DNA of 64,000 nucleotides from an uncultured bacterium. Its GTDB lineage: Bacteria; Lernaellota; Lernaellaia; JACKCT01. This document shows, in pieces, positions 6,813-60,631 of the stretch. The stretch's first letter is position 1, and every line of letters begins with the position of its first letter. Made by a program: the position numbers and the translations under genes. The DNA lies in the NCBI GenBank assembly GCA_964591275.1, contig CAZQAE010000001.1:51988-115987 (forward strand), written 5' to 3'. The notes below the pieces were generated by a model that saw only the letters and a list, made by a program, of their open reading frames with translations, made no database searches and had not been told where the DNA came from.

Positions 6813-6841
6813 AAATTTTATTTAGGTTTCAAAGCAGGGCA

Positions 6842-6855: not shown

Positions 6856-6862
6856 GCCAAAA

Positions 6863-11491: not shown

Positions 11492-11511
11492 CCCTTAGGA
11501 TAAAAACCTAA

Positions 11512-11544
11512 AATCCCTCCGGCTTTTTTTAAGCCGGGGGGATT
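11512..11544. terminator. Bidirectional rho-independent terminator between convergent genes
   Basis: aatccctccggc-ttttttta-gccggggggatt gives a 12-bp stem (1 mismatch) with T-rich flanks on both strands. It lies between the stops at 11491 (+) and 11551 (-). Confidence 0.6.
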
Positions 11545-11550
11545 ATATTG

Positions 11551-13293: not shown

Positions 13294-13329
13294 ATCGCTT
13301 TCTCGTCGTTTTGCCGGATGTGGGCGAAA

Positions 13330-14802: not shown

Positions 14803-14873
14803 GAAATTTGAAACATGACAGCCTTGTTTTACTAATTCCTTGTCGTAATGCAAAGAGATGAATTTGAATTGTC

Positions 14874-38884: not shown

Positions 38885-41173
38885 TCAGCGTGGCAGTAAA
38901 TTGTTTTCCTGAAAACACTGGACCATCAGGTCAGACAGAATATCCGTGCCCGTTGGATTCAAGTGCACGGTGTCCCATGGGAAAACGAGGCTGGTCATGT
39001 CTTCGCGGGCTTTGGACATCCAGGAATGCGTATCGCAGAAAACCGCATGGACCTGATCGGCCGTTTCTTCCATGCTGGCATAGAGAAAATTGGCGGGATT
39101 ATTCTTCGTCGGCAAGTGGCTTGTGTCTTGTTTCCACATAAATTCGGAAGTGAAAACGATCTTCGCTTTTTGCCGTCTGGCGAGATCGGCCATGTCTTTT
39201 AGGTTCAGCACAAAGTCCTCAACGGGATTTATTCGCTTCAGAATCGAAGTTTTGGCCGTGCGTCGGCCCCTTTTTTCCACAATGGCTCTCGTCAGACCGT
39301 TGTAGAGACGGAATCGACGCAGACTGTCCTGGATTTTAATAATCCAACTTCTTTTTTCCATCAGGCCTTTGCCTGCCATGTAGTCTTCAATATCATCCCA
39401 GTCGCCGCCGGTTTTGGCCGCCCACAATTCACGGAGTGTGAAGGGTCCCCATTCATCCCAGGAAGTCGAATCGTTGAAGCCGCAATACAGAACGAGCAAA
39501 TCATATTGCAGGTCTTTTAAATAACTTTGGTGTAAAACGAGCAGTTGAAAAAGGTTGTATCCACATACGCCGGAATTTACGACCTGATATTTGACCCCGT
39601 CATCGCGGTCATTGAGTTTCTTTTCAAGTTTATATCCCCATGTGTCCTGGATATCGTCCAGCCTGTCTCCCCATACGTTGCTTCCCCCCATGATGACAAT
39701 ACGGAAGACGCCATCGGGTTTTTTGCCAGGAACGTTTCCGGAGCGGAAGTTGATTTTTTCAACGGTATAATCACTGCGCCTGTCATAATCCGCATCGGGC
39801 GCCATAAGATTCTTCGGCGCCCAAAAAAGAAGGTTGTCCGACCGAAAATCTTCGCCGATGTTATCCGGAAGCCAGTGGACGGCATAAGTCGAGTGCCGGG
39901 CGGTAAATTCCGCCCCGACGAAAAGAAACGCTACGGCGGCGATCATGAAAAGAGAAGATGCGGCAAAGCTTTTGCCGTACAAGCGCATTAGTGAGAATTT
40001 GGCCGCTGCCATCGCCGTCAACGACAGCGCGGTCAGGGCTATCAAATCCGCCGCGTCCGTCGACCGCAGTTGGTCAAGCGCCGGCAGGGCGGCGAAGATG
40101 AGGGGAACAGAGGCAATAAGCGCCCCCGCCTGCCAGGGCAGCTTGGCTGAAAAGCGCCAGAAAATCATTTCGCAGAAGATGAGAATGGAAAGGCCGCTAA
40201 AAATAAAGAGCCTTGCGCCGGTCGTGGGATCCAGCAGTTTTGCCGGGTTCGGGGGTCTCAGAAGGCCGGCAAGGGATAATGAGGCTGGAATGACAAGAAG
40301 GAGCCAAAACCAGGCGCGGGGTCGGTTCCAGTATACGCGTGGCAAAATTGCCAGACGCCAAGCCGTTGTGGCGGTGGCGAGGAATAGCATCGCATCCAGG
40401 CGCATCGGAGCATCAATGAATCCCATTGTGACAGCGAAAGGGAGATATCCGGCGGCAAAGGTTGCAATAGCATCCCCTCGTCGTGCGATCCCGGAAATTG
40501 ATAAAATGAGATGATCCATCCAGCGCGCAAGAAACAATAATGGGCATAAGCATGCGAAAAGCTTGAGGAGGAAAAGATAATTTTCAAGGTTTTCCCCGAA
40601 TCGCTCGGTGAAGAGTATCGCGCCGGTTTCGGCATCTTTCACAGTGAAGTTGTCGATGTCGAACACTGATTCCTTCGACAAGATCTCGATGGTTTCCAGA
40701 TGGTCCGTTGGACGCGCAACGGTTTTTATCCAATCTTTTTCCATGTGACGAAGGGAAAGAGATGTTTCGTCAATTTTGATTTCGATTGTCTGGCGCTTTC
40801 CCGGAATGCGGTCGATATCGTTGCCAACGATAAATGCTTCGGCGCTGTTGCCCTCGTGGTCCCATGCTCGAATGAAGATCATTCCGATCCATATTGGATT
40901 TAGATCAAACTCAACGCTAAGGTTCGTATTCGTCATTGACGCCGGAACGGAATATTTTAATGCGGATTTCCAAACCATTTTGACAACGCCGCCCCTGGGC
41001 CATTTTTCATCGCCCTCGGCGGATAGGGAAAACGGAGCTTCGATAGGCGAACGACCGTAGTACAGCGTGCAGGAAATTGTCAGAATCGCGGCAAGAAAGA
41101 TAAGGCTTGGTTTGAAACTATGCCATCGAACGGGGCCTTGGTGCGTGATATCGACAGGATTTCGATAGTCCAT
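38885..41173 (-). CDS. Polytopic membrane protein fused to C-terminal SGNH/GDSL hydrolase domain (putative exopolysaccharide acyl-modifying enzyme)
   Basis: N-terminal TM plus extracytoplasmic domain, then a multi-TM region. SGNH blocks IVIMGGSNVWG (block I), YCGFND (block III) and DTVHLNPTG (block V). ATG 41173 preferred over TTG 41191. Confidence 0.65.
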   Translation of the reverse strand: MDYRNPVDITHQGPVRWHSFKPSLIFLAAILTISCTLYYGRSPIEAPFSLSAEGDEKWPRGGVVKMVWKSALKYSVPASMTNTNLSVEFDLNPIWIGMIFIRAWDHEGNSAEAFIVGNDIDRIPGKRQTIEIKIDETSLSLRHMEKDWIKTVARPTDHLETIEILSKESVFDIDNFTVKDAETGAILFTERFGENLENYLFLLKLFACLCPLLFLARWMDHLILSISGIARRGDAIATFAAGYLPFAVTMGFIDAPMRLDAMLFLATATTAWRLAILPRVYWNRPRAWFWLLLVIPASLSLAGLLRPPNPAKLLDPTTGARLFIFSGLSILIFCEMIFWRFSAKLPWQAGALIASVPLIFAALPALDQLRSTDAADLIALTALSLTAMAAAKFSLMRLYGKSFAASSLFMIAAVAFLFVGAEFTARHSTYAVHWLPDNIGEDFRSDNLLFWAPKNLMAPDADYDRRSDYTVEKINFRSGNVPGKKPDGVFRIVIMGGSNVWGDRLDDIQDTWGYKLEKKLNDRDDGVKYQVVNSGVCGYNLFQLLVLHQSYLKDLQYDLLVLYCGFNDSTSWDEWGPFTLRELWAAKTGGDWDDIEDYMAGKGLMEKRSWIIKIQDSLRRFRLYNGLTRAIVEKRGRRTAKTSILKRINPVEDFVLNLKDMADLARRQKAKIVFTSEFMWKQDTSHLPTKNNPANFLYASMEETADQVHAVFCDTHSWMSKAREDMTSLVFPWDTVHLNPTGTDILSDLMVQCFQENNLLPR

Positions 41174-41247
41174 GGCTATACTATGCCACAATTCCGGTCA
41201 AAGAGAATTGAAATTTGCAGGTCAAAGGGTCTGGGGTGAAAAAATTG

Positions 41248-41344: not shown

Positions 41345-44300
41345 TTAGTATTGCACCGTGTCTGGGTGCGTGCCGAATATGAAGCGGTAGTTGAGGAATA
41401 GGGTGTAGGAATAATAATTATAATCCTGATCCAAGCCAAATCCTATATCCGCAGCGGCGCTGAGGATGTGTTTCGGCTGAATTCGCCAGTTCATGCCGCC
41501 GAATAATCCGAATCCATACCCGCCGTTTCCTTCCTCGATGTTGTAGGAGGGACTGACGCCGATGGAATAGTCGAAGGGCTGCGTTGGACGGTGATACCAG
41601 GTGATGGGCAGAGCATGCCCGTAGAAGGTTTCAGGTGCCCAGTAAACAGCAGCCTGATATGGAGTTTGGTCTTCGTGATCGATATACGAGAAGACGTAGG
41701 ATGCAAGGATCGAAGAGTTCTCCACTTGGAAGGGCTGCCTGAATGTGTAGCCGAGACCGGCTGTGACGAGATTGGAGACCTGCGAATCGAGGTTGTAAGT
41801 ATCGCCGATGGACTGGCTCTTGATGCGATAGGCATATTCGCCGAAAAGCTGGAAGTGATCCCAGGAAGTTCCGATCAGTTTCTTGAGGGTGAGGACGCCG
41901 CCGTAGGCGTCGGTATAAAGCATCTCACGCATCGACGACACAGTTTCGCGAATGTCCGTTCGTTTCAAATACAGATCAATGAGCGCGACATCCAGGAGGT
42001 TGAAGCCAAGGTGGCCTTCCCAGTTTGCGGTATTGTGGCTCACAGCGTCGCCGTAGAAGTTGATCGTGTATAAGCCCTTGAGAGAGACCTCGTTGAAAAG
42101 GCCGAGTTTCAGTCCGACGGTGGGTGAAATGTTGGTGACCGTTTCCTCGTTTTCCTGAAAAAATCGTCCGGCCTGCAATTTTGCGATGGCCTCCCAGCCT
42201 TCCCAGAAACGGTATGTGCCTACCACGCCGCCCTGGATGTAGGAAACGAGATCGTCGAATCGAATGCCTTCAGAGTAACCTGCGAAAACGTCCAAGGTCG
42301 GGGCGCTGTCGTAGACCACCTGTGTTAATCCCTGTTCGGCTTCCTGATTGCCCGGCTCCAACTGTCGTACAACTTCATATTGGTGAATGGCCGAGCGCCA
42401 CATGCCTGACATACGATAAATGTTGGCTAAGGCCAACCGGTAGTATACGTTGTCGGGATTGGCCTCCACGAGCTTTTCAAATTCGTATCGCGCTCGTTTG
42501 TAGCTTTCCTTGTTGTACAATTCGGCCGCCAATTGGGCGCTGTACTTTTCTTCAGCCTCGCTCGCGAAGAGCGAGGCATCTCCCGGTGGAATGCCGCCGG
42601 GCCCTCCTTGGGCGCCGGACGAAGAGAAGAAAGATTCGAGAAGAGCCTGGTCTGTGTAGTCGATGGAATACAGTTGCAGGTATTGTATGGCCTCCATATT
42701 CGTAGGATTGATAATCAGTATTCTCTTGTATTGATCGATAGCGTCGTCCACGCGTCCCGATTGCTTATAGGAGCGGGCCAGTCCCGTGCGTCCCTCTACG
42801 TTCCAGGGATCGCTGGCCGCCACGTACTCCAGGTTGACGGTGGAATCCTGATATTGGCCGATGGCTAGAAAGCACAAGCCCACTTCGAGTCTGACCTCTG
42901 TGTTTTCAGGTTGCTGCTCGGCAAGTTCCGCGTAAATGGCGATGGCGGAATCGTAGTCTTCTCCGTAGTTATAAGCCCTTGCGAGTTCCAGCTTCAATTC
43001 AAAATCATTCGGATCCTGGTTGACGAGATATTGCAGGTGTTCGGCTGCCTTGGCGTATTGCGTTTTGTAGGCATACAACTTCGCCAAAAGGCGGCGCGTA
43101 TCGGAATTTTCCGGTTCGGCGATGACGACCTTTTCGGCGTGGACAATAGCGTCATCGTAGCGGTCGGGATTCATGGAAAGAAGCGTTGCCAGGTAGAAAT
43201 GAGCGTCCACATTGTCCGGTTCGTTATCCAAAACGGCTTTGAATTCATTTTCCGCCAGGCCATTTTTCTTCATACCCATGTACACTCTACCAAGCGCCAG
43301 ATGGGCGTCTATGTTATTCGGCTCAAGCGTTATTGCTTCCTGATAGGCCACCTCGGCTTCGGCGAATTCACCCCTTTCAAGGAGAAGGCGGCCGAGTTCC
43401 AGGCGGGCTTCGGTGTTTTTGGGATAGCGGTCATACAAGTTGCGATACAGGTCGATTGCGCGCCCGTAATATTGACGATCCCATGAATAAAGGTTGGCGA
43501 GAGCGAAGCTGGCGTCGTAGTTGTTCGGGTCCTGTTTCAGGACAACTTCATATTGCCGCATCGCGGACTCAATGTGGTTGTTGTAGGTGAATAACTTAGC
43601 CAATGACATACGCGCTGGGATGTGCGAGGGATCTTGCGCGATGATGACCTGATATTGCTTGATGGCGGCGTCGTAGCGTTTGGCAAAGCCCAGTGTTTGA
43701 GCATACTCAGCACGCAGATCCAGATTTCCCGGTCGTCGCGACAGTAGCCACTGGTACTGTTGGATCGAGGCGTTGAAGCGCTGCGTCCACGAATAAAGCC
43801 TTGCCAGGCGCAATCGCATGTCGAAATTTTCCGGGTCCTGTTTCAGGATTTCAATACACTCGTAAATAGCCGCGTTGTATGTTCCCTTGTCATAGGCGTA
43901 AATTTCGGCAAGGGCCAGTCGCGAGGCTGTATGATTGGGGTCGATGTCGAGGATGCGACGGTATTCCCGAACGGCTTCTTTGTACCTGTTGTGCGCCTCG
44001 TATTCCCGGGCGAGCAAAAAGCGGATGTCGGTGTTGCCGGGATCATCTTCCAGAATCCCGCGCATCTGCACGATGTTCGCCGGATATTCGCCGTAAACGC
44101 CGTAGATGTCTCCCCAATTGTTTGAAAAAAGCCACCAGGCGCTTTTATAATCGCCGGTGACGGCGACATACCGGCGGGAAAGCAGATAATGATTGTAGGA
44201 AAGCTCGGTGAAAGAGTTGGAGTTGTTGGGGTCAATTTCAAGCGCCTTGCGGTGCATGACGATCGCTTTTTCATATTCGCCACTTTTTCGATCAATGACG

Positions 44301-46651
44301 CCCAAACCGTAATAAGCCCCTACCGATTTGTCATCGGCAGCCAGAACTTCCCGGTATTCCAGCTTCGCCTTGTCGTATTGATCCGTGATGCGATAGACAT
44401 CGCCCAGACCGAGATGCGCGTTGATGTGCCGTGAGTCTATCTCCATCACTTGCTTATAAGTCAGTTCAGCCAGATCGTACTCGCCTTCCATCTGGTAGGC
44501 CTGGGCGAGGGCAATGCGAATTTCGGTTCTGGATGGATCCTGATTGAGTTGATCCACCAATTCGCCGATGACCTGTTCGCCGTGCCCCGCGTATATTCTG
44601 GTTCTGACCATCTCAATGTAGAGGTCTTCATCATGGGGGCTTTTTGCGATCAGGGTCTGGTATTCGACAACGGATTCGTCATATCGCTCGGTCCATGAAT
44701 AAAGTCTGGCCAGGAGCAGGCGGGTTGTGTCGTCTTCGGGGTCCTGCGTCAGAATATATCGGCATTCCTGAATGCCCTTGTCATAGTAAGCGCTGTCCTG
44801 GGCGTAAACGTGGGCCAGTTTGCGGTGAAGATCCATGTCGGAAAATCTTAGCACGAGGGCCTTTTCCAGCGTGTCGATGGCTTTGATCACGTCCTGCTGA
44901 TAAGCGTAGGCGTCGCCCAGGGCGCCGATGACTTCCATGTTTTGCGGTGCAATAGCCGCAGCTCGCCGGACGGCGTCAATGCTCTTTTCGTGGTCGCCCA
45001 TTTTGCCGTACACAACGGATAGACCCAGATAACCCGAAATATCGTTCGAATCGGCTTTGATGGCTTCATTATAGTGTACAACGGCGTTTTCGTAATCTCG
45101 GTGTTCGGTATAGATTTCGGCTAGTTTGATGTGCGGTTTGGATTCGCCCGGAAACTCCTTGATCGATTTTTCTAGGGTCCCCACGGCTTTGTTGTAGCTC
45201 ATGGTGGCTTCGATGCCGGCGAAAATCCAGCGGACTCGGTCTATGACGCCAAGCCATTGCTTCTCGATTTCGACTGACAGTTCTTCTTTGCGCTTTTTCG
45301 CCGCTACCGATTTTAAATTGTAGGCTTCGGCCAGTCCTATCTGGGCTTCCATGCGAACCGCGGGGTCGTCGGTGTCCATCGCGTCTTTGAACATGTCGAT
45401 GGACTCTTCGAACTGCCCGCTTTTCGCATGAAGATTGGCCTTGAGCAGCTTGGCTTCAGCGTCCTGCGGCAAAGCGGAAATGGCTAGGTCTACCTCGTGG
45501 ATGGCGCGTTCGTAGTCACCTGCGTCGCGCAAGGTCCTGACGTATTCCAGGCGAATACTCTGGTTTTCTGGGTCGGCTTCCAGCATGGCCTGGTATTGGG
45601 CCTCGGCTTCGGCGGTGTTGTTGGAAAGGGCATATATGCGGCTCAGCAGTTTCCTGGCCTCGAAATTGTTGGGATCGTCTTCCAGGATTTCATTGCAGGC
45701 CTTGACCGCCTTCGGATAAGTGGCATCTTCCCAGGAATACAGGTTGGCGAGGATAATCTTTGTGTCCATATTTGCCGGTTCCAGTCCAGCGGCTTTTTCG
45801 TAGGACTCAATGGCCTCGCGCGTTCGCTTCTGCGCGGCGTAGGCATTGCCGATACCGCGCAAAGCGACGATGTTGTCCGGGTCTTTTTTCAGGACCATGC
45901 GGTACGAGAGCACGGCGTCGGCGTAACGCTGGGAATAGGTGTAGGCTTCGCCCAGGCCCAAAAGAGCCCTGTCGGTGTACTTGGGTTTGAGGGAGAGGAG
46001 GTTGAACTGGTTGGTCGCCTCGTCATATTGCTTGGCGTACATGAGGACGTACGCATATTCCAGGCGCAGATCATCATTGTTCGGGTCGCCTTTCAGAATC
46101 TGCTTGTAGACCTCGGCGGCTTCGGTATGTTGTCCCATCCATGAGCGCACTCGCGCGGAAATGAGCAGTGTTTTTTTGTCCTCCGGATCCTTTTCGAGTA
46201 TTTTATCGCAGGCTTCTATTGATTTATCGTAGGTGGCTTTATCCCAGGAGTAGACTTCGGCAAGTTCCCGAAGCGCGGTGAGATTTTCCGGTTCGATCTT
46301 GAGCAATTCGTTGTATTGTTCTACGGCGTTGGGCGAATCGTTTTCCCACTGATAAACCTGTGCCAAATGCAGGCGCACAACACCGTCATTCGGATCCTCT
46401 TGAATCACCTCCCTGTATACGGAAATCGCCATGGCGTTTTTTCCGAGCGCATAATAGCAGTCGCCCAAGCGCTTTTTGGCGTCAAGGTTGGCGGGATCAT
46501 CTTCCAGGGCCTTCATAAAGAAACCGATGGCCTGGCCGAAGTTGTTCTTTCCATAGTGGCTGACGCCATCCTCATAATTGCCCGCCCATACCGGCGGCGT
46601 AAGGAAGGTCAACCATCCAAGGAAGGTGAGGAATACCGCGATGCGTTTCAT
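41345..46651 (-). CDS. Giant TPR-repeat protein with C-terminal outer-membrane beta-barrel (PgaA/BcsC-like exopolysaccharide export protein)
   Basis: ATG 46651 (TTG 46657 alternative). Signal peptide MKRIAVFLTFLGWLTFLTPPVWA. About 1400 aa of TPR repeats. C-terminal 350 aa of alternating amphipathic strands ending in the aromatic-rich ...YRFIFGTHPDTVQY. Confidence 0.8.
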   Translation of the reverse strand: MKRIAVFLTFLGWLTFLTPPVWAGNYEDGVSHYGKNNFGQAIGFFMKALEDDPANLDAKKRLGDCYYALGKNAMAISVYREVIQEDPNDGVVRLHLAQVYQWENDSPNAVEQYNELLKIEPENLTALRELAEVYSWDKATYDKSIEACDKILEKDPEDKKTLLISARVRSWMGQHTEAAEVYKQILKGDPNNDDLRLEYAYVLMYAKQYDEATNQFNLLSLKPKYTDRALLGLGEAYTYSQRYADAVLSYRMVLKKDPDNIVALRGIGNAYAAQKRTREAIESYEKAAGLEPANMDTKIILANLYSWEDATYPKAVKACNEILEDDPNNFEARKLLSRIYALSNNTAEAEAQYQAMLEADPENQSIRLEYVRTLRDAGDYERAIHEVDLAISALPQDAEAKLLKANLHAKSGQFEESIDMFKDAMDTDDPAVRMEAQIGLAEAYNLKSVAAKKRKEELSVEIEKQWLGVIDRVRWIFAGIEATMSYNKAVGTLEKSIKEFPGESKPHIKLAEIYTEHRDYENAVVHYNEAIKADSNDISGYLGLSVVYGKMGDHEKSIDAVRRAAAIAPQNMEVIGALGDAYAYQQDVIKAIDTLEKALVLRFSDMDLHRKLAHVYAQDSAYYDKGIQECRYILTQDPEDDTTRLLLARLYSWTERYDESVVEYQTLIAKSPHDEDLYIEMVRTRIYAGHGEQVIGELVDQLNQDPSRTEIRIALAQAYQMEGEYDLAELTYKQVMEIDSRHINAHLGLGDVYRITDQYDKAKLEYREVLAADDKSVGAYYGLGVIDRKSGEYEKAIVMHRKALEIDPNNSNSFTELSYNHYLLSRRYVAVTGDYKSAWWLFSNNWGDIYGVYGEYPANIVQMRGILEDDPGNTDIRFLLAREYEAHNRYKEAVREYRRILDIDPNHTASRLALAEIYAYDKGTYNAAIYECIEILKQDPENFDMRLRLARLYSWTQRFNASIQQYQWLLSRRPGNLDLRAEYAQTLGFAKRYDAAIKQYQVIIAQDPSHIPARMSLAKLFTYNNHIESAMRQYEVVLKQDPNNYDASFALANLYSWDRQYYGRAIDLYRNLYDRYPKNTEARLELGRLLLERGEFAEAEVAYQEAITLEPNNIDAHLALGRVYMGMKKNGLAENEFKAVLDNEPDNVDAHFYLATLLSMNPDRYDDAIVHAEKVVIAEPENSDTRRLLAKLYAYKTQYAKAAEHLQYLVNQDPNDFELKLELARAYNYGEDYDSAIAIYAELAEQQPENTEVRLEVGLCFLAIGQYQDSTVNLEYVAASDPWNVEGRTGLARSYKQSGRVDDAIDQYKRILIINPTNMEAIQYLQLYSIDYTDQALLESFFSSSGAQGGPGGIPPGDASLFASEAEEKYSAQLAAELYNKESYKRARYEFEKLVEANPDNVYYRLALANIYRMSGMWRSAIHQYEVVRQLEPGNQEAEQGLTQVVYDSAPTLDVFAGYSEGIRFDDLVSYIQGGVVGTYRFWEGWEAIAKLQAGRFFQENEETVTNISPTVGLKLGLFNEVSLKGLYTINFYGDAVSHNTANWEGHLGFNLLDVALIDLYLKRTDIRETVSSMREMLYTDAYGGVLTLKKLIGTSWDHFQLFGEYAYRIKSQSIGDTYNLDSQVSNLVTAGLGYTFRQPFQVENSSILASYVFSYIDHEDQTPYQAAVYWAPETFYGHALPITWYHRPTQPFDYSIGVSPSYNIEEGNGGYGFGLFGGMNWRIQPKHILSAAADIGFGLDQDYNYYSYTLFLNYRFIFGTHPDTVQY

Positions 46652-46697
46652 TCCCAATACCCCTTATCGGGTTGTCGATGACGGTGATCGGCGTTCA

Positions 46698-47852
46698 TTA
46701 GTTCGCCGGGCCGCCATGCTCGTTATAATATCTGAGCGCCAACAAGGCTTCCAGATTGTCGAACGAAAATACTTCGTCGTCGCAAAATGAGCCATACATT
46801 GGGCTGATCCTGTTTTTGCTTTGAAAATACAATAGTCTTTCGATGACTTCAGCGGCGAATTTGACGTCGCCGCAACGAAGCGCGTATCGGGCTAAAAGCG
46901 CATATACGCTTGACGACTCAAAAAATTTCGTCGCTTCGCCGCTCAGGGAGTTGTACTCGGCGTATATGGCGCCGTCTTCCTTCATTTTTTCCTTGAAAAA
47001 GTTCAGGAGTTCGTGGCGGTCGTCCGGCGACGCCGTTAAAAATAATCCGCAATATAATTGGTTGATCGTATTTTGCTGGTAACCGAAATACGCTCCCCGC
47101 GAAAAGTCATATCCCTCATAAAACAACCCTGCGCCGAGTTGCCCGTTTTTAAGCATTTCATAATTACGTTTCAATATCTTTTTCCAAGTTGGGTCGAGCC
47201 GTGAAAGTTTCAGCATGGTTGGCAAATCCAAATAAGACAACTGGACCTGTGGCGCAACCGTATGCTCTCCCCAATCGCGCCAGTTGACGAAATCCCTGAG
47301 TGCATCGTCCACGACTTCATAGTTTTGGATGCTTTGCGCTACCTGCATGGCATAATCCATATAGGGTTTCGATTTCCATTGCTCATAAGCGCCCAGGCAC
47401 GCGCCGACGATGCGCAAATCATCCACGCTGGCCGTAGAGTTTGCCGTCAGTTCGCCGTCATGCGTTATTTTCCAAAAGAACAAGCCAATTTGTCCGACGA
47501 GCTTCTTTTTCGCAAATTGAAGTTGCCCGTCAAACAGCTCTTTGTCGTCTGCCGCCACAGCGTAATTCATCATGATTCCCGTGCTTTCCGACAGGAGTCC
47601 TGAACGTCTGAAATCGTCGAGGCGGAACTTTTTGAAAAAAAGATAATTTTTGACTTCCGAGGCTGTATATATTCCTCCTTCCGCAGTCATCATGCGCTTT
47701 TCAATGAAGCGCCTGCACGTCAATTCGGCCTTGACGGGATCAAGCGGTTTCCAGCACCATGCAGCCGACGCCAGGGCTGGAATGAGCGCTGCGGCGAAAA
47801 TGATGCCATAACGGATAAATCGCGAATTCACGGCGCCGCGCTGTGCGGACAT
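46698..47852 (-). CDS. Secreted glycoside-hydrolase-like protein ((alpha/alpha)6-barrel, GH8/BcsZ-like)
   Basis: AAGGAGG RBS. Signal peptide ending ALASAAW. Position in operon matches the periplasmic hydrolase slot of synthase-dependent EPS systems. Family assignment rests on weak motif similarity only. Confidence 0.45.
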   Translation of the reverse strand: MSAQRGAVNSRFIRYGIIFAAALIPALASAAWCWKPLDPVKAELTCRRFIEKRMMTAEGGIYTASEVKNYLFFKKFRLDDFRRSGLLSESTGIMMNYAVAADDKELFDGQLQFAKKKLVGQIGLFFWKITHDGELTANSTASVDDLRIVGACLGAYEQWKSKPYMDYAMQVAQSIQNYEVVDDALRDFVNWRDWGEHTVAPQVQLSYLDLPTMLKLSRLDPTWKKILKRNYEMLKNGQLGAGLFYEGYDFSRGAYFGYQQNTINQLYCGLFLTASPDDRHELLNFFKEKMKEDGAIYAEYNSLSGEATKFFESSSVYALLARYALRCGDVKFAAEVIERLLYFQSKNRISPMYGSFCDDEVFSFDNLEALLALRYYNEHGGPAN

Positions 47853-47855
47853 TCC

Positions 47856-49130
47856 TTATTCCGCCTCCTTTTCCTGAATTCGGTATCGTACGGTTTTAAC
47901 CCACTCCGTCTTCTTTTTCCTCGTGACAATGTCGAGATAAACAGAACGAGACACGACGATAATCCATAGCTGGCAGTACGTAACGTACATAATGAAGGAT
48001 AAGACAACGTTTTTAAACGATTCCTCCTCCTCCAAACTGACGGCGATAAGGGTCTGTAGGAAAAAGAGCATCATCGCCAGGAACCAGATAAAGGCGAAAG
48101 GTCCGATGAGTCCGAGTTTGACGACTCCCAACAGACCCATGATGGCGATGACGTCCGAGAGAAGCAGGGCGAAAAAGAACATGTAATACAGGCTGAACAT
48201 ATAAAAAAGATCGACCATGATCCGGCGGTTTTTCATTTGGAATGCGACGCGAAGGAACTTTCGCACGATGTAGCTGATCCCTTGCGCCCAGCGGGTTCGT
48301 TGCCGGATGAAGGTTTTCATATCCTCCGGCTCTTGTTCCCATGTCACGGCGTAGGGAATGAATTTGATTCGATAACCCATCTCATAGAGGCGAATCGAAA
48401 GTTCGGCGTCCTCGGCGACGGCGTCCTCATCGAAGCGCCCCGCCTTGTCGAGAACCTTGCGCCAGATGACGTAATTTGTGCCCGGCAGCGTGGCGAGACC
48501 GAAAAGCTTGTAACGACCGCCTTGTATGATCCACTGGAAGGTAATGAATTCGATGTTGATGAAAGGAGGCAGATAGCCGCGATCCCTGTTGATGGTGCGT
48601 ACTTTGCCGAGAACAGCTCCCAGCTTTGGATTTTCCAAAAGGTTGGCGACCAGATTGAACAGTGAGTCCGGCTCCGGATGGTTGTCGGCGTCAAAGATCG
48701 CGATGACGTCGCCCATCGAATGCTCCAGGCCGATATTCAAGGCTCGACTCTTGCCTCTGCCGCCTTCTCCCTCCGGGATGTTGACGAGCTTGACTTCGCG
48801 GTGGCGACGAGCCATGCGCGTCGTGATTTCCTCTGTCTCATCTTCACTGCCGTCATTGATCACCAGGATCTCCATGCGCTCTTTCGGATAGAGCATGGCT
48901 AGCATGGACTGGATCGTTCTTTCAATCACAATGGCTTCGTTGTGGCAGGGTATGAGTATGGAAACGAAAGGGAAGGGGAATGGTTCGTTGGCGATTCGCT
49001 GTCGTTCTTTCTCGGCTGAAACACCGTTCAGGAAAGCAAAGAAAGTCAGAAGTACATTGAACAAAAGAAACAACCAGATGCCTATAGCAGCTGATAAAAA
49101 CGCCAAGTCGATGTAAACGCTGGTGTACAT
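47856..49130 (-). CDS. Processive family-2 glycosyltransferase (PgaC/IcaA/NodC-like polysaccharide synthase)
   Basis: N-terminal TM, then GT2 domain with SILIPCHNE, DGSED and IFDADN, plus the processive QRTRWAQG (QxxRW) motif. C-terminal TM bundle. 424 aa. Confidence 0.85.
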   Translation of the reverse strand: MYTSVYIDLAFLSAAIGIWLFLLFNVLLTFFAFLNGVSAEKERQRIANEPFPFPFVSILIPCHNEAIVIERTIQSMLAMLYPKERMEILVINDGSEDETEEITTRMARRHREVKLVNIPEGEGGRGKSRALNIGLEHSMGDVIAIFDADNHPEPDSLFNLVANLLENPKLGAVLGKVRTINRDRGYLPPFINIEFITFQWIIQGGRYKLFGLATLPGTNYVIWRKVLDKAGRFDEDAVAEDAELSIRLYEMGYRIKFIPYAVTWEQEPEDMKTFIRQRTRWAQGISYIVRKFLRVAFQMKNRRIMVDLFYMFSLYYMFFFALLLSDVIAIMGLLGVVKLGLIGPFAFIWFLAMMLFFLQTLIAVSLEEEESFKNVVLSFIMYVTYCQLWIIVVSRSVYLDIVTRKKKTEWVKTVRYRIQEKEAE

Positions 49131-49131: not shown

Positions 49132-51186
49132 TTAGGATTCTTCCCCTTTTCGTGACGCCATCCACTTCCTGGCTCCGGAAAAGGTCTTGCGGGTAATCAG
49201 GAACACCCACAGAATCAGGAAGGTGATCAAGGTCAAAATTCCCAGGATGAGGATAGCCAGAGCCACCGGATTCGTCACCCCGGAGACGGTCGGTCTGAAC
49301 AAGGTGATGTTCGATAAACCGATTTTTGGGCGTTGATACGAACCCTGCAAGACCTGCAATTCTCCCGGACGCAATGAGACATACTTATGGATATCGCCCG
49401 TGACAGTTCCGAAGGAATAGGTTTCGCCAAGAAGCTCTCCCTGGCGACTAATAGTCAGTTCGTGTTTATATTGCGAACCCAGAGTGAGAATGACCTCGCC
49501 GATTCCGCTGACGACGACCCGATCCCTTGTGGTAACTTTATTATTGAAATCCGCGAGGGAGGCGAATTCCCATTCCTGCGCGATCAGACCGTCCACGACC
49601 TCTTCCAGCAATTTCAAGTCCAGATAGGTGTGGAAGAAAAAACTGGCCCAGCCGTCGCGAACAACTTTTGTGGCCTCGGCGTCAATGAGGATCGCCTCAG
49701 GCGTGCGTCCGACTTTGGGATTCACATAACCCAGGCTTTCCGGGATGATAATCTGTTTGTGCTTGTCGGACTTTATCAGATAGGGAAAGAACTGGTCGGA
49801 GCCGAACAATTCCACGGGCATGCGCCGTTCCACCACCGTTGTGAAGTAATTGGCAAAGACGCTGTAATCCACTTGCCCCGCCGCGTAATGGGGCGTCGTC
49901 CATGCCAGGGGAAAAATGTCGTTCAGGAAACATTCATTGAGTGCGCGCTCGATTCTTACCGAGGCGAAGGTTGCGTCCCCGGCGGAAATCGGCCCGCCGA
50001 TCTCATGACTCCAAAACTCGTAATCGACCGCCGTTTCTCCCGAAATCTGGTGCGTATAACCGTGAAGGATGACCGAACCGCCGCGGCTGATAAGATATTT
50101 GATGGTCTCCTGGAACTCGGGATCGTCCGAAAGGTAGATCGTTTCGTCCGTTGCAGGATTTTTGTAAACGGGGATTAGCGTAAAGGCGAAGGGTATGCCT
50201 CTTTCATAAAGCAGGTCAGCGGCTAGCTTGAGTGGTCCCGGCTGCCGCTTTGCGTGTATGTCCTCCAGGCGCACGAAGGCGCGATGGCGTTCTTTGTGGT
50301 TTTGGCCGAGGAAATCATGCAGAATATCCGCAAAAGCCAGATAGGCGCCGCCCTCAATGGAGTAAGCCAGCGCGTCCGAAGCCACGTACCAGAAATTGTC
50401 CGAATGCACGATGTAGGGCAATTCAATCGCGGGCGGCTCGGTGGGCGGCGGCGCGAGAAACTCTGCCAAATTTGAGGAATCGAAAAGATCATATGCCCGT
50501 ATGGGTTTGACGGCCTGGCCGATGGGCATTACCGGCAGCATGGTTTCCAGGGGATTGTTCATGGGAGATTCCGCCGTACCGGGCGGGATGTCTTTTCCGT
50601 ATTCTGCGGGTTTCAGGGGATCGGCGACGAAACGGGCTGTCGCCATAACCTTGGCCAATGCCGGTCTGGTCACGTTGATAGCGAAGGTGCGCAGATCGAT
50701 TTTCGCCAGATGCCGTCCCTTGTATTCGACATCATTCGTAAGATGATTGTCCGAATCATCCACCAGACTGATGCCCCACTTATCCATGCTGTGGCGATTT
50801 TGCATGCGTTCCAGGTTGGCGCCGATCCACATGACTTGCGCCCTGGTGTCGAAAATGTCGTCGATCAAATAACTCGGCAGAGGCTGTCCGGTTTTTGTGC
50901 CCACATAAAAAACAAAAGACGCATCTTTAGCCATGCCTTTTTTGTAGCTTGCCGTTGAAATTTTCTCCAACGACACACTAAAATGGCAAAGCAATTGTGC
51001 AAGAGATTCGGCGCTGACGATTTCGCGGTTGAGACTTTCAGCGTTAGTGGGCTCATCATAGATAATAAGAACGGGTTTTCCGCCGGGGCCGAGAACTTCC
51101 TGTTCAGGCTTAAGTTGGATAAAAATGACGTACAGCACTCCCAAGATCAGCGCCAAAGCAATGAAGGGAATTAGGACTGTGCGCAT
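49132..51186 (-). CDS. DUF2334-type polysaccharide deacetylase-like protein, membrane-anchored at both termini
   Basis: N-terminal and C-terminal TM helices. Central region FAFTLIPVYKNP...VILHGYTHQ is typical of DUF2334 (CE4-like fold). Confidence 0.65.
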   Translation of the reverse strand: MRTVLIPFIALALILGVLYVIFIQLKPEQEVLGPGGKPVLIIYDEPTNAESLNREIVSAESLAQLLCHFSVSLEKISTASYKKGMAKDASFVFYVGTKTGQPLPSYLIDDIFDTRAQVMWIGANLERMQNRHSMDKWGISLVDDSDNHLTNDVEYKGRHLAKIDLRTFAINVTRPALAKVMATARFVADPLKPAEYGKDIPPGTAESPMNNPLETMLPVMPIGQAVKPIRAYDLFDSSNLAEFLAPPPTEPPAIELPYIVHSDNFWYVASDALAYSIEGGAYLAFADILHDFLGQNHKERHRAFVRLEDIHAKRQPGPLKLAADLLYERGIPFAFTLIPVYKNPATDETIYLSDDPEFQETIKYLISRGGSVILHGYTHQISGETAVDYEFWSHEIGGPISAGDATFASVRIERALNECFLNDIFPLAWTTPHYAAGQVDYSVFANYFTTVVERRMPVELFGSDQFFPYLIKSDKHKQIIIPESLGYVNPKVGRTPEAILIDAEATKVVRDGWASFFFHTYLDLKLLEEVVDGLIAQEWEFASLADFNNKVTTRDRVVVSGIGEVILTLGSQYKHELTISRQGELLGETYSFGTVTGDIHKYVSLRPGELQVLQGSYQRPKIGLSNITLFRPTVSGVTNPVALAILILGILTLITFLILWVFLITRKTFSGARKWMASRKGEES

Positions 51187-51219: not shown

Positions 51220-52074
51220 TTAAAATGCCTGATACCGTGAGTCGATAACGTTGACGAGTTCCTCCAGGTTGCCGGCGTCTTTTGGAAAATTGGAAGCTGC
51301 AATAGTCAGATCAGGAATAATCTCATCCCATTTTGATTCGATGGCCTCAATCAATTCTTCTCTTCGTTCGGCGACGCGCATCAGCACCACGTTTGTGCCG
51401 GCGGCGTTGGTTTCAGGTAGGATCAGGCCGATTTCCGTGTCCGAGTACTTGCCGATATAATCCGTGTCGCGCAGCATCTGGCGCATGAAGCGCCCCATTT
51501 CACGGAAGAGGGCGATTTCCTCTTCGGCATCGTATCGTTTTTCAAAATCTTCGAGATTGTTGATGCGCATGAAGATGAGAGACAAAGGGATATTGTAGCG
51601 TTTGACGCGTTTTATCTCGCCATTGAGCATCCATCGGAAACTTTTGAAATTGTACAGCCCCGATTCCTGGTCGGGAATGAAAGTTTCGACTTTTGTGACT
51701 TCCCGGAAAGAATCCGAGTGCCGGAAATCCAGCACTTCGGAAATGATGCCCAGAACGAATCCCACCGAAACAAGTACGCCGATGTTTGCAATACTTTCAC
51801 GGATGAAGCCGGATTGCGCCGTTCCCTGAACGATCTTGAACAGGACAAGAGAGCCGTAAACCGCCGTGGAAAGAACGGATAACAGCGCACCGTGCTTTAG
51901 CCCTTTTGTGACCGCAAGAAAGGCAATCGGAAAAGACAGGACAAAAGTCAGCGCCTTATAAGATCGAATTTGAAAGAAGTAGGCGAAGAAAATCCCGAAT
52001 AGCAAGCCCAGTATCGTCAGCGTGAACAGATCTCGATATTCAAAAGATTTTTTCGGGCCGCCTTGTCCGTTCAT
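51220..52074 (-). CDS. Membrane protein with degenerate GGDEF domain retaining RxxD I-site (PelD-like c-di-GMP receptor candidate)
   Basis: Three to four N-terminal TMs. GGDEF fold signature GLYNFKSF...LSLIFMRINNLEDFEKRYD...MLRDTDYIGKYSDTEIGLILPET. The active-site GG(D/E)EF is replaced by YSDTE. RDTD sits exactly 5 residues upstream, as the I-site does in active cyclases. Confidence 0.7.
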   Translation of the reverse strand: MNGQGGPKKSFEYRDLFTLTILGLLFGIFFAYFFQIRSYKALTFVLSFPIAFLAVTKGLKHGALLSVLSTAVYGSLVLFKIVQGTAQSGFIRESIANIGVLVSVGFVLGIISEVLDFRHSDSFREVTKVETFIPDQESGLYNFKSFRWMLNGEIKRVKRYNIPLSLIFMRINNLEDFEKRYDAEEEIALFREMGRFMRQMLRDTDYIGKYSDTEIGLILPETNAAGTNVVLMRVAERREELIEAIESKWDEIIPDLTIAASNFPKDAGNLEELVNVIDSRYQAF

Positions 52075-52253
52075 TTAGGTTTCTCCTCGTTGTTTGGACC
52101 GCGTCGAGGCAGACTCGATTGGGACGATGAGGAAGACTGCATCCTTTTATAAACGAACTTGGCCACATCTCTGACGAGAATGCCCAAAGTGATGACGATG
52201 ATGATGACAACAACGCCGATGGCGATTGTAATTAGACAGGATTCAGATTCCAC
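52071..52253 (-). CDS. Small single-TM protein, first gene of the EPS operon (PgaD-like accessory candidate)
   Basis: GGAAGG RBS 6 nt upstream of GTG 52253. TM helix ITIAIGVVVIIIVITLGIL followed by a Ser-rich tail. ATGA-type overlap with the GGDEF-like gene. Confidence 0.4.
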   Translation of the reverse strand: MESESCLITIAIGVVVIIIVITLGILVRDVAKFVYKRMQSSSSSQSSLPRRGPNNEEKPK

Positions 52254-60587: not shown

Positions 60588-60631
60588 GCTGTTGCGAAAA
60601 GCTTCGACAATCGCCAAATGGAGGTTATGAA

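What the first reader, a model, noticed from the sequence alone, without database searches (positions are those of the whole stretch)
51220..52074. Degenerate GGDEF domain with intact RxxD I-site: candidate PelD-like c-di-GMP receptor controlling the EPS operon
The cytoplasmic domain aligns collinearly with diguanylate cyclases (GLYNFKSF; LSLIFMRINNLEDFEKRYD; EIGLILPET). The catalytic GG(D/E)EF is replaced by YSDTE. An RDTD motif sits exactly 5 residues upstream, where the inhibitory-site RxxD lies in active enzymes.

That is the configuration used by PelD and other receptor-type GGDEF proteins to bind c-di-GMP without synthesising it. Unlike PelD there is no GAF domain.
Basis: partly seen in the sequence, partly recalled or inferred. 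Interest (0 to 1): 0.7.

Follow-up and report, generated by a model that had tools for sequence, protein, structure and literature searches.

The report
YdaK-type c-di-GMP receptor of EPS operon
This gene encodes a membrane-anchored, catalytically dead GGDEF protein that keeps every c-di-GMP inhibitory-site residue.

Summary
The ORF at 51220-52074 (minus strand, 284 aa) is real. It has four N-terminal transmembrane helices and a GGDEF domain (Pfam E 1.4e-12). RDTD (R202-D205) aligns with the I-site RxxD of c-di-GMP-bound cyclase structures.

All catalytic residues are lost: PleD D327, N335, D344 and E370 become R, E, I and T, and K442/R446 lie beyond the C-terminus. The four I-site residues (R156, R202, D205, R233) are invariant in 22 homologues of 42-76% identity.

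The protein matches published YdaK features nearly residue for residue: 283 aa, 4 TMH, RxxR 157-160, RxxD 202-205, SDERI. Its profile aligns full-length with Firmicute GGDEF proteins of ydaJKLMN-type operons (hhalign 99.8%).

The neighbours are YdaL (DUF2334), YdaM (GT2, 42-46% identical) and YdaJ (GH8). The BcsB-like YdaN is missing. A 1770-aa TPR protein with a weakly BcsC-like C-terminus and a conserved 60-aa membrane protein are added.

Verdict: a predicted I-site c-di-GMP receptor that gates a synthase-dependent EPS machine. It is a new member of a known kind, YdaK/PssE rather than PelD. Binding is untested.

The parts
51220..52074 (-). YdaK-like receptor gene (284 aa): 4 TM helices plus a degenerate GGDEF domain
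   Evidence: ORF. Pfam GGDEF E 1.4e-12. AF2 model has pLDDT 84. Foldseek top hits are all GGDEF domains, probability 1.0. hhalign 99.8% to Firmicute YdaK-like proteins over 259 columns.
51715..52050 (-). N-terminal membrane module, residues 9-120: four TM helices with N and C termini cytoplasmic by inference. Carries a conserved YG(S/T) motif in TM3 and a KG(F/L)(K/R)xGA loop.
   Evidence: AF2 helices H9-33, H38-57, H59-83, H88-120. Hydropathy scan. Invariant G58, G62, A63, G74 and near-invariant Y73. The YG(S/T) motif is shared with Firmicute YdaK-like proteins.
51223..51678 (-). Degenerate GGDEF domain, residues 133-284. It ends before the phosphate-binding K442/R446 helix of PleD.
   Evidence: Pfam match covers positions 4-150 of the 161-position profile. 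Constant offset of 157 to PleD numbering. PleD residue roles taken from PMC7288161.
51460..51471 (-). Primary I-site RxxD: R202-D-T-D205
   Evidence: Translation. Aligns with RxxD of 3IGN, 6ZXM, 6D9M and 5EUH and with PleD R359/D362. Invariant in A1 and in the Firmicute set A2.
51430..51444 (-). Remnant of the GG(D/E)EF active-site motif: S211-D-T-E-I215
   Evidence: Translation. Lies opposite GGEEF in the PDB alignments. S/A-D-x-E-(I/L/V/M) is conserved within the clade. B. subtilis YdaK has SDERI (PMC5422440).
51598..51609 (-). RxxR (R156-V-K-R159), the secondary I-site. R156 is the equivalent of PleD R313, which acts in trans.
   Evidence: Translation. Both arginines are invariant. R156 lies opposite PleD R313 in the ungapped BLASTP alignment. 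YdaK has RxxR at 157-160.
51376..51378 (-). R233, equivalent of PleD R390 (third residue of the primary I-site)
   Evidence: Translation. Invariant in A1. Lies 13 residues after the P of LPET, as in 3IGN and PleD. The BLASTP gap that would shift it to R237 is not supported by the ungapped phmmer alignment or by conservation.
52071..52253 (-). Conserved 60-aa single-pass membrane protein (GTG start after GGAAGG). Its stop overlaps the ATG of the receptor gene (ATGA).
   Evidence: Sequence. Homologous ORFs occupy the same position in 8 or more related loci, and three independent annotations call it a gene. Alignment A4 has invariant VV...RD..F...R.
49132..51186 (-). YdaL-like DUF2334 protein (684 aa): N- and C-terminal TM segments and a putative periplasmic CE4-like polysaccharide-modifying domain
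   Evidence: Pfam DUF2334 E 9e-47. A 95%-identical homologue is named 'uncharacterized protein YdaL' by JGI. It is 34-36% identical to Firmicute YdaL. TM segments.
47856..49130 (-). YdaM-like GT2 processive synthase (424 aa) without a PilZ domain
   Evidence: Pfam GT2 families. PgaC_IcaA TIGR03937 scores 169 bits, below the 422 cut-off. It is 42-46% identical over its full length to the GT2 of Firmicute yda-type operons.
46698..47852 (-). YdaJ-like GH8 glycoside hydrolase (384 aa) with an N-terminal signal/anchor
   Evidence: Pfam GH8 E 3.4e-9. It is 34% identical (E 3e-47) to the GH8 upstream of the Caminicella ydaK-like gene.
41345..46657 (-). 1770-aa TPR protein with a signal peptide and a roughly 320-aa C-terminal domain that is weakly BcsC-like; inferred outer-membrane exporter
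   Evidence: TPR families. The profile of the C-terminus hits BcsC 9B8A with whole-sequence E 1.7e-7; the stretch inside the BcsC C-terminal barrel region (1010-1071) scores only i-E 0.067 on its own. Syntenic 1759-1768-aa homologues exist. The AF2 model of the C-terminus was unusable.
38885..41191 (-). Multi-TM SGNH/GDSL protein (768 aa); possibly a polymer (de)acylating accessory enzyme, with uncertain membership of the operon
   Evidence: Pfam Lipase_GDSL_2 E 1.4e-9. About 9 TM segments. Found in the same position after the TPR gene in L014 but not in L015 or L016.

Best explanation
The gene encodes a YdaK-type I-site c-di-GMP receptor, the regulatory subunit of a synthase-dependent exopolysaccharide machine.

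Shown: it is a 4-TM protein whose cytoplasmic GGDEF domain has lost every residue needed to bind GTP/Mg2+ and to catalyse. The complete allosteric product-binding site of diguanylate cyclases is kept under strict purifying selection: R202 and D205 of RxxD, R233 (PleD R390) and R156 (PleD R313, which acts in trans). The gene is translationally coupled to, and strictly syntenic with, YdaL-like (DUF2334), YdaM-like (GT2, no PilZ) and YdaJ-like (GH8) genes.

Inferred: an intercalated c-di-GMP dimer binds the I-site. It probably cross-links two GGDEF domains through R156 of the partner. The resulting change passes through TM4 and the membrane module to the GT2 synthase, licensing polymerisation and translocation. 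B. subtilis YdaK is required for YdaLMN activity and needs both its TM helices and R202/D205.

Also inferred: the polymer, possibly rich in N-acetyl-hexosamine, is modified in the periplasm by the DUF2334 protein, trimmed by the GH8 enzyme, and exported through the TPR protein with its weakly BcsC-like C-terminus. That protein takes the place of the BcsB-like YdaN of monoderm systems.
For: - **Domain and fold.** Pfam and NCBIfam GGDEF hits. AF2 model with pLDDT 84, 4 TM helices plus a GGDEF fold. All Foldseek top hits are GGDEF domains.
- **Residue mapping.** Alignments to c-di-GMP-bound 3IGN and 5EUH and to DgcR place RDTD on RxxD and SDTEI on GGEEF. An ungapped 157-residue offset to PleD gives R156=R313, R170=D327, E178=N335, I187=D344, R202=R359, D205=D362, T213=E370 and R233=R390, with K442/R446 beyond the C-terminus. 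Residue roles come from PMC7288161.
- **Conservation.** The four I-site residues are invariant in 22 homologues, while the catalytic-site equivalents vary. In ten Firmicute YdaK-like proteins only 11 columns are invariant. These include RxxD R and D and the second R of RxxR, while the GGDEF position is hypervariable: DEDLF, NEDVF, QKDMI, EKDKF and others.
- **Family.** hhalign of the two alignments gives 99.8%, E 1e-29, 259 columns including the TM module.
- **Published YdaK features.** 4 TMH, RxxR 157-160, RxxD 202-205 five residues before SDERI. R202A, D205A and deletion of the TM helices each abolish EPS. The isolated GGDEF domain binds c-di-GMP in vitro (PMC5422440). PssE binds c-di-GMP with Kd 0.79 uM (PMC4125290).
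- **Context.** GGDEF-DUF2334-GT2-BcsB(-GH) occurs in Clostridium sp., C. difficile and C. perfringens. GH8-GGDEF-DUF2334('YdaL')-GT2-BcsB occurs in Caminicella. The window GT2 is 42-46% identical to theirs and the GH8 is 34% identical. Small ORF-K-L-M-J-TPR synteny holds in 11 related loci. DUF2334-GT2 fusion proteins exist. The GT2 has no PilZ domain and there is no c-di-GMP riboswitch, so this protein is the only recognisable c-di-GMP input.
Against: - No binding or genetic experiment exists for this clade.
- Identity to Firmicute YdaK-like proteins is only about 20%. With the clade profile, generic active cyclases score as well as Firmicute YdaK-likes. Orthology therefore rests on the profile-profile match, the TM-module motif and the synteny.
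- The B. subtilis YdaK sequence itself could not be retrieved, so the comparison with it is feature by feature from the literature.
- Within this clade the remnant motif SDxE is itself conserved (D212 and E214 invariant). That hints at some function at the former active site that the model does not explain.
- YdaN, which is essential in B. subtilis, is absent.
- No diguanylate cyclase gene was found among the window ORFs scanned.
- In B. velezensis, deleting ydaK rescued biofilm formation at low c-di-GMP, so the sign of regulation (activator when bound, or inhibitor when free) is not settled.
Confidence: 0.75

Rival explanations
1. It is a c-di-GMP-independent scaffold. The degenerate GGDEF domain is only a protein-protein interaction module that assembles or localises the synthase complex, as S. 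aureus GdpS uses its GGDEF domain to recruit DgkB. The conserved arginines and aspartate would serve that interface, not nucleotide binding.
For: Degenerate TM-GGDEF proteins that act without c-di-GMP exist: GdpS (PMC11962490, listed; Holland 2008, cited). There is a weak NCBIfam hit to GdpS (E 1.2e-4, 21 bits against a cut-off of 400). Much of the surface is highly conserved, for example the invariant GLYNFKSFRWML, which suggests protein contacts. No cyclase gene lies nearby.
Against: Exactly the four residues that form the c-di-GMP I-site in PleD are invariant in this clade. RxxD and RxxR are among only 11 invariant columns in Firmicute YdaK-likes. In YdaK, R202A and D205A abolish function, EPS production needs diguanylate cyclases, and the domain binds c-di-GMP in vitro.
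Confidence: 0.1
2. It is a receptor with inverted logic. The ligand-free protein is a brake on the synthase, and c-di-GMP binding merely releases the brake, rather than the bound form being an obligatory activator.
For: In B. velezensis, deleting ydaK rescued biofilm formation and colonisation in a low-c-di-GMP background (PMC9800504).
Against: In B. subtilis, ydaLMN without ydaK gives no EPS, and ydaK is required in trans (PMC5422440). Listeria pssE deletion abolishes EPS even at high c-di-GMP. The gene is strictly retained in every operon examined.
Confidence: 0.08
3. The I-site binds a different nucleotide, for example (p)ppGpp or another cyclic dinucleotide, so the operon responds to a signal other than c-di-GMP.
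For: PleD structures with ppGpp or pppGpp bound in addition to c-di-GMP exist in the PDB hit list (9G85, 9G86). Hypr GGDEF enzymes show that nucleotide specificity within the fold is plastic (PMC7288161).
Against: The RxxD + R390 + R313 tetrad is the canonical site for the (c-di-GMP)2 dimer. The homologous receptors YdaK and PssE bind c-di-GMP. Hypr specificity concerns the active site, which is destroyed here.
Confidence: 0.04
4. It is a residual or unconventional diguanylate cyclase that supplies local c-di-GMP to the synthase.
For: It has a significant GGDEF-domain match, and sources annotate homologues as 'diguanylate cyclase'. E214 (PleD E371) and D212 are conserved.
Against: Both glycines of GG are lost. 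The Mg2+ ligands D327 and E370 become R and T. The guanine-binding N335 and D344 become E and I. The K442/R446 helix is absent. YdaK, with the similar motif SDERI, cannot synthesise c-di-GMP.
Confidence: 0.02

Closest known systems
YdaK of Bacillus subtilis / B. velezensis (c-di-GMP receptor of the ydaJKLMN EPS operon)
   Same: - Size: 284 vs 283 aa.
- Four N-terminal TM helices followed directly by a degenerate GGDEF domain.
- RxxR at 156-159 vs 157-160.
- RxxD at 202-205 in both, five residues before an S-D-x-x-I remnant motif (SDTEI vs SDERI).
- The gene lies immediately upstream of a DUF2334 gene (YdaL) and a GT2 gene (YdaM), with a GH8 gene (YdaJ) in the operon.
- Full-length profile homology to Firmicute proteins in the same operon position.
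   Different: - About 20% pairwise identity to Firmicute members.
- The host is a diderm, known only from metagenome-assembled genomes labelled Deltaproteobacteria or Myxococcales.
- Gene order is K-L-M-J instead of J-K-L-M-N.
- The BcsB-like YdaN is absent.
- A 1770-aa TPR protein with a weakly BcsC-like C-terminus and a conserved 60-aa single-pass protein are added.
PssE (Lmo0531) of Listeria monocytogenes
   Same: A membrane-anchored degenerate GGDEF protein (DKDDA) with RxxD five residues upstream. It is encoded in an EPS operon with a PgaC/BcsA-like GT2. It is essential for EPS synthesis and binds two c-di-GMP per protein with Kd 0.79 uM (PMC4125290).
   Different: pssE is the last gene of pssA-E. 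That operon has a BcsB-like PssD, and its glycosidase is encoded elsewhere. The remnant motif differs. No sequence comparison was made here.
PelD of Pseudomonas aeruginosa
   Same: An inner-membrane protein with a degenerate GGDEF domain that binds c-di-GMP at an RxxD I-site and activates a synthase-dependent EPS system with a TPR-porin exporter (established knowledge; cited as precedent).
   Different: PelD has a GAF domain between its TM region and the GGDEF domain, and it works with PelF (GT4), PelE and PelG. Here there is no GAF domain, the synthase is GT2, and none of the pel genes is present.
Active diguanylate cyclases with product inhibition (PleD, WspR, DgcR, GcbC)
   Same: The same fold and the same I-site tetrad: RxxD, R390 and R313 equivalents.
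   Different: All substrate, metal and catalytic residues are lost and the C-terminal phosphate-binding helix is missing. The I-site is therefore used for signal reception rather than for feedback inhibition.
Cellulose (BcsA/B/C/Z) and PNAG (PgaABCD) secretion systems
   Same: A processive GT2 synthase gated by c-di-GMP, a periplasmic polymer-modifying or hydrolysing enzyme (a GH8 like BcsZ; a CE4-like domain like PgaB), and a TPR outer-membrane exporter like BcsC or PgaA.
   Different: c-di-GMP is sensed by a separate GGDEF-type subunit, not by a PilZ domain (BcsA) or a PgaC-PgaD interface. There is no BcsB. The modifying enzyme is DUF2334. The GT2 scores far below the PgaC and CelA equivalog cut-offs.

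Membership tests
GGDEF domain superfamily (PF00990) | Significant match to the family HMM, above the curated cut-off | tested here: met
   48.1 bits against a cut-off of 23.8, E 1.4e-12, residues 135-280. TIGR00254 scores 44.7 bits against 37.4.
GGDEF domain superfamily (PF00990) | GGDEF/nucleotidyl-cyclase fold | tested here: met
   The AF2 model (pLDDT 84) matches isolated GGDEF domain structures with probability 1.0, TM-score 0.6-0.75 normalised to the target, and rmsd 3.4-4 A.
Catalytically active diguanylate cyclase | GG(D/E)EF signature | tested here: not met
   SDTEI lies opposite GGEEF. The clade consensus is (S/A)DxE(I/L/V/M).
Catalytically active diguanylate cyclase | Mg2+ ligands and guanine-binding residues (PleD D327, E370, N335, D344) and phosphate-binding K442/R446 | tested here: not met
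   The equivalents are R170, T213, E178 and I187, and the protein ends at the equivalent of PleD 441.
I-site (RxxD) c-di-GMP receptors with degenerate GGDEF domain | RxxD exactly five residues upstream of the (degenerate) GGDEF motif | tested here: met
   R202-D-T-D205, then YIGKY, then SDTEI. It aligns with RxxD in five solved structures and is invariant.
I-site (RxxD) c-di-GMP receptors with degenerate GGDEF domain | Additional arginines that complete the (c-di-GMP)2 site (PleD R390; R313 in trans) | tested here: met
   R233 and R156 occupy these positions and are invariant in 22 sequences. Residue roles are from PMC7288161.
I-site (RxxD) c-di-GMP receptors with degenerate GGDEF domain | Specific binding of c-di-GMP | not testable with these tools
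   This needs purified protein (DRaCALA, ITC) or ligand-aware structure prediction.
YdaK family (ydaJKLMN-type EPS operons) | About 280 aa, four TM helices directly followed by a degenerate GGDEF domain | tested here: met
   284 aa with helices 9-33, 38-57, 59-83 and 88-120. YdaK architecture is taken from PMC5422440.
YdaK family (ydaJKLMN-type EPS operons) | Full-length sequence homology to YdaK-position proteins of Firmicute yda operons | tested here: met
   hhalign A1 vs A2 gives 99.8%, E 1.1e-29 and 259 aligned columns including the TM module. Pairwise BLASTP to the Clostridium protein gives E 1e-9.
YdaK family (ydaJKLMN-type EPS operons) | Direct alignment to B. subtilis YdaK itself | not tested
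   The sequence could not be retrieved. Only published positions were compared: RxxR 157-160, RxxD 202-205, SDERI.
YdaK family (ydaJKLMN-type EPS operons) | Adjacent to ydaL (DUF2334) and ydaM (GT2), with ydaJ (GH8) in the operon | tested here: met
   The homologue is named YdaL by JGI and NCBI. The GT2 is 42-46% identical and the GH8 34% identical to the Firmicute operon genes.
YdaK family (ydaJKLMN-type EPS operons) | BcsB-like YdaN in the operon | tested here: not met
   No PF03170 gene is present in the window operon or in L014-L016. One is present in all four Firmicute loci. This is a system-level difference; it does not affect membership of the receptor protein.
PelD family | GAF domain between the TM region and the degenerate GGDEF domain | tested here: not met
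   Only a ~12-residue low-confidence linker (121-131) separates TM4 from the GGDEF fold. There is no GAF Pfam hit.
PelD family | Encoded in a pel operon (PelA-G, GT4 PelF) | tested here: not met
   The neighbours are DUF2334, GT2, GH8 and TPR genes.

The most novel reading that the evidence does not exclude
The locus represents an undescribed diderm version of the Yda/Pss-type synthase-dependent exopolysaccharide system.

Its core is YdaK-YdaL-YdaM-YdaJ. The BcsB-like YdaN subunit, essential in Bacillus, has been dispensed with. Two parts are added: a ~1770-aa TPR protein with a weakly BcsC-like C-terminus, and a conserved 60-aa single-pass protein translationally coupled to the receptor. That small protein may be a new subunit of the c-di-GMP-gated synthase complex.

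A UDP-GlcNAc 2-epimerase gene lies next to the operon in several relatives and in C. difficile. This would point to a ManNAc-containing polymer like the Listeria Pss EPS.
Probability: 0.5. Interest if true: 0.5.

Novelty: new member of a known kind. Interest (0 to 1): 0.35.

Why it matters
Databases annotate this gene and its homologues as 'diguanylate cyclase'. That is almost certainly wrong: it is a sensor, not a source, of c-di-GMP.

Recognising it as a YdaK-type receptor extends a regulatory module so far studied only in Bacillus, with PssE of Listeria working the same way, to uncultured Gram-negative lineages. It also links the poorly understood DUF2334/YdaL family to a conserved four-gene core.

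The diderm and monoderm versions form a natural comparison. It can show which subunits of this EPS machine are dispensable (YdaN) and how an outer-membrane export route was grafted on.

In practice, the locus predicts that biofilm-matrix production in these fen and sediment bacteria is switched post-translationally by c-di-GMP.

Tried and rejected
**Retrieving the B. subtilis YdaK sequence for a direct alignment failed.**
- The homologue search with the window protein found only the narrow clade.
- The profile search of 1.84 billion representatives gave unnamed hits.
- The cluster look-up gave no organism names.
- The two DUF2334 searches listed no Bacillus entry among the 120 shown.
- The genome-contig scan returned only nine metagenome-assembled genomes.
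- Gao et al. 2013 is not held, and the B. velezensis supplement was not useful.

**Structure of the TPR C-terminus could not be modelled.**
- The single-sequence AF2 run gave pLDDT 38, so it is unusable.
- The barrel assignment rests on a weak BcsC match only.
- The afdb50 fold library was unavailable.

**Scans that led nowhere.**
- The promoter/terminator scan of the operon did not exceed shuffled controls.
- Rfam found no c-di-GMP riboswitch or any other RNA family in the window.
- No GGDEF, EAL, HD-GYP or PilZ gene was found among the other window ORFs scanned.

**Readings rejected.**
- PelD membership: no GAF domain and no pel genes.
- Active cyclase: all catalytic residues are lost.
- R237 as the R390 equivalent: this is a BLAST gap artefact. 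R233 is the invariant residue and fits the ungapped register.
Full report
**Observation.** The window contains the stated ORF at 51220-52074 on the minus strand, encoding 284 aa. GGAG precedes the ATG, and the ATG overlaps the stop of a small upstream ORF (ATGA). Pfam GGDEF (PF00990) matches residues 135-280 at E 1.4e-12 (48.1 bits, cut-off 23.8), and TIGR00254 agrees. phmmer against PDB sequences aligns residues ~130-280 without internal gaps to solved cyclases: 3IGN, DgcR 6ZXM/6ZXB, 6D9M and GcbC 5EUH. Each time 'mlRDTDyigkySDTEIglilpet' lies opposite 'niRqsDsagryGGEEFgiilpet' or its equivalent. RDTD (R202-D205; window 51460-51471) is therefore positionally the inhibitory-site RxxD. The GG(D/E)EF position is SDTEI (211-215; window 51430-51444), not YSDTE.

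**Anatomy.** An AlphaFold2 model built from a 22-sequence alignment has mean pLDDT 84. It shows four long helices (9-33, 38-57, 59-83, 88-120), a low-confidence 12-residue linker, and then an alpha/beta domain. A hydropathy scan finds the same four hydrophobic segments. Foldseek against the PDB returns only GGDEF domains. Isolated domains match with TM-score 0.6-0.75 normalised to the target. There is no GAF or other sensory domain.

**Catalytic site and I-site.** Residue roles in PleD were taken from PMC7288161.
- Mg2+ ligands: D327 and E370.
- Guanine binding: N335 and D344.
- Phosphate binding: K442 and R446.
- I-site: R359 and D362 (RxxD) plus R390, with R313 contributed by the partner domain.

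The NCBIfam PleD-family alignment (query 128-274 to profile 288-434) is consistent with a constant offset. So is a BLASTP alignment to the PleD GGDEF sequence. The alignment is ungapped from residue 135 to 226, with an offset of 157.

The mapping gives:
- D327 to R170
- N335 to E178
- D344 to I187
- E370 to T213
- K442 and R446 fall beyond the C-terminus
- R313 = R156, R359 = R202, D362 = D205, R390 = R233

BLASTP inserts a 4-residue gap that would pair R390 with R237. The ungapped phmmer alignment to 3IGN, the fixed P+13 spacing, and conservation all favour R233.

In alignment A1 (22 homologues, 42-76% identical to the query), R156, R159, R202, D205 and R233 are invariant. The catalytic equivalents 170, 178 and 187 vary. 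In the GGDEF part 41 of 152 columns are invariant, so four invariant I-site positions by chance is roughly 0.005. The protein cannot be a cyclase, and its product-binding site is under strong selection.

**Family.** The clade is narrow. The word-indexed search found 31 proteins, all from metagenomes or MAGs labelled Deltaproteobacteria, Myxococcales or 'bacterium', and annotated 'diguanylate cyclase'. In a full HMMER scan of 1.84 billion representatives the clade collapses to one full-length 50% cluster. After that, scores drop to the level of generic GGDEF proteins, E about 1e-27. Among those lower hits are ~280-aa proteins that share the architecture, have degenerate motifs and keep RxxD.

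The literature gives the key. B. subtilis YdaK is a 4-TMH protein with a degenerate GGDEF domain (SDERI). It has RxxD at R202-D205, five residues upstream of that motif, and a putative secondary site RxxR at R157-R160. It is required for EPS synthesis by YdaLMN. R202A, D205A and deletion of the TM helices each abolish function, and the soluble domain binds c-di-GMP in vitro (PMC5422440). The window protein has RxxR at 156-159, RxxD at 202-205 and SDTEI at 211-215.

**Context.** Downstream on the same strand, with 0-40 nt gaps, lie four genes.
- A 684-aa DUF2334 protein (E 9e-47).
- A 424-aa GT2 with no PilZ domain. Its best NCBIfam hit is PgaC_IcaA, far below the cut-off.
- A 384-aa GH8.
- A 1770-aa TPR protein.

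A 95%-identical DUF2334 homologue is named 'uncharacterized protein YdaL' by JGI.

I then fetched Firmicute loci around DUF2334 genes. Clostridium sp., C. difficile and C. perfringens have GGDEF (264-281 aa)-DUF2334-GT2-BcsB-like, followed in the first two by GH113. Caminicella sporogenes has GH8-GGDEF-DUF2334 (NCBI name 'YdaL')-GT2-BcsB-like, which is the J-K-L-M-N order.

The window GT2 is 42-46% identical over its full length to these YdaM-position proteins. The GH8 is 34% identical to the Caminicella YdaJ-position protein. The DUF2334 domain is 34-36% identical.

Ten Firmicute YdaK-position or YdaK-like proteins (alignment A2) share only 11 invariant columns. Among them are R and D of RxxD and the second R of RxxR, while the former GGDEF motif is hypervariable. 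Profile-profile comparison of A1 with A2 gives 99.8% probability, E 1.1e-29 and 259 aligned columns. It runs from TM1 to the end and includes a shared YG(S/T) motif in TM3. That motif is absent in active 4TM-cyclases of similar size. I therefore file the protein as a YdaK-family member. The B. subtilis sequence itself could not be retrieved and aligned.

**The diderm variant.** In 11 related loci the order is small ORF - receptor - DUF2334 - GT2 - GH8 - TPR protein of 1759-1770 aa. No BcsB-like gene is present.

The small ORF (window 52071-52253, 60 aa from a GTG preceded by GGAAGG) is a single-pass membrane protein with invariant VV...RD..F...R. Independent annotations call it a gene.

The TPR protein has a signal peptide. 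A profile of its last ~390 residues hits E. coli BcsC. The whole-sequence E is 1.7e-7, but part of that score comes from TPR repeats. The stretch inside the BcsC C-terminal barrel region (residues 1010-1071, 'GvYWSPeryqSH' against 'GGYYSPQEYLSF') has an individual E of only 0.067. Structure prediction of this part failed. The outer-membrane porin role is therefore an inference.

A multi-TM SGNH/GDSL protein follows in the window and in L014 only. A UDP-GlcNAc 2-epimerase-family gene lies divergently upstream in L004, L006, L015 and L016, and downstream in C. difficile. This hints at a ManNAc-containing polymer.

**Mechanism.**

Shown:
- The catalytic site is dead.
- The I-site tetrad is intact and invariant.
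- The protein is membrane-anchored.
- Its gene is strictly syntenic with a PilZ-less GT2 synthase.
- There is no riboswitch and no other c-di-GMP domain among the window ORFs scanned.

Inferred from YdaK, PssE and PelD precedent:
- A c-di-GMP dimer binds R202, D205 and R233, and probably R156 of a second protomer.
- The change is transmitted through TM4 and the 4-TM module to the synthase complex and switches on polymerisation.
- The DUF2334 and GH8 enzymes act on the polymer in the periplasm, and the TPR protein exports it.

I give this explanation 0.75.

Rivals:
- A c-di-GMP-independent scaffold like GdpS: 0.10.
- Inverted logic, with the ligand-free protein acting as a brake, as the B. velezensis data suggest: 0.08.
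- A different nucleotide ligand: 0.04.
- Residual cyclase activity: 0.02.

One point is unexplained. D212 and E214 of the remnant motif are invariant within the clade.

**Comparison and novelty.** The closest known protein is YdaK. PssE of Listeria works the same way (Kd 0.79 uM). PelD is a functional analogue but fails two defining features, the GAF domain and the pel context.

The receptor is a new member of a known kind. The operon is a variant not described in the literature I could search; the yda papers found there concern only Bacillus.

I score interest at 0.35. The most novel reading not excluded is a distinct diderm Yda-type secretion system with a new small subunit and no YdaN (probability about 0.5, interest 0.5).

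Noticed in passing
window 52071-52253 (-): A conserved 60-aa single-pass membrane protein gene lies immediately upstream of, and overlaps by 4 nt, the receptor gene. It occupies the same position in all related proteobacterial loci examined, with invariant VV...RD..F...R. No equivalent was seen in the four Firmicute loci. It may be an extra subunit of the synthase/receptor complex.
   Followed up: partly
L004 ~6461-7783, L006 6374-7519, L015 7534-8652, L016 7555-8655; L011 12253-13377: A UDP-GlcNAc 2-epimerase-family gene (PF02350) lies divergently upstream of the operon in four related loci and downstream of the C. difficile yda-type operon. In the window, glyQS takes that place. This hints that the polymer contains ManNAc, as the Listeria Pss EPS is reported to.
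   Followed up: no
window 38885-41191 (-): A 768-aa protein with about 9 TM segments and a C-terminal SGNH/GDSL domain lies directly after the TPR gene. It is also present there in L014 but not in L015 or L016. It may be a polysaccharide O-acyl-modifying enzyme.
   Followed up: partly
proteins P0208-P0214, P0218, P0219, P0249: Natural fusion proteins joining DUF2334 and a GT2 domain (about 720-960 aa; those with a source name are from Actinobacteria). Stand-alone DUF2334 proteins are also abundant in Streptomyces. This independently supports a functional coupling of YdaL-like and YdaM-like proteins.
   Followed up: no
window 646-14853: A cluster of five radical-SAM genes. Two have B12-binding domains and two have SPASM domains. 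A PMT_2-type glycosyltransferase and a 780-aa protein with no Pfam hit lie among them. This looks like a peptide- or lipid-modification cluster unrelated to the finding.
   Followed up: no
window 17305-21822 (-); L016 3749-7548: Two tandem membrane 'Sulfatase'-family genes (PF00884). A similar tandem pair sits just upstream of the yda-type operon in L016. They might decorate an envelope polymer.
   Followed up: no
window 58839-61909 (+); L014 1-1762: A DUF1302/DUF1329 gene pair is syntenic with the glyQS-yda region in the window and in L014.
   Followed up: no
window 23666-24526 (+): A CE4 polysaccharide deacetylase with a DUF3473 domain is encoded about 25 kb from the operon. It is another envelope-polysaccharide gene in the window.
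   Followed up: no
window 49387-50178 (+), 41591-46681 (+ strand ORFs), L006 13348-16800 (-): Long ORFs antisense to the DUF2334 and TPR genes appear in the mechanical ORF lists. The one tested (L006 13348-16800) had no Pfam hit, and homology lies on the other strand, so they look spurious.
   Followed up: partly
homologues P0001-P0028: Public annotations call the clade 'diguanylate cyclase (GGDEF)-like protein'. Given the loss of all catalytic residues, this is a systematic misannotation.
   Followed up: yes
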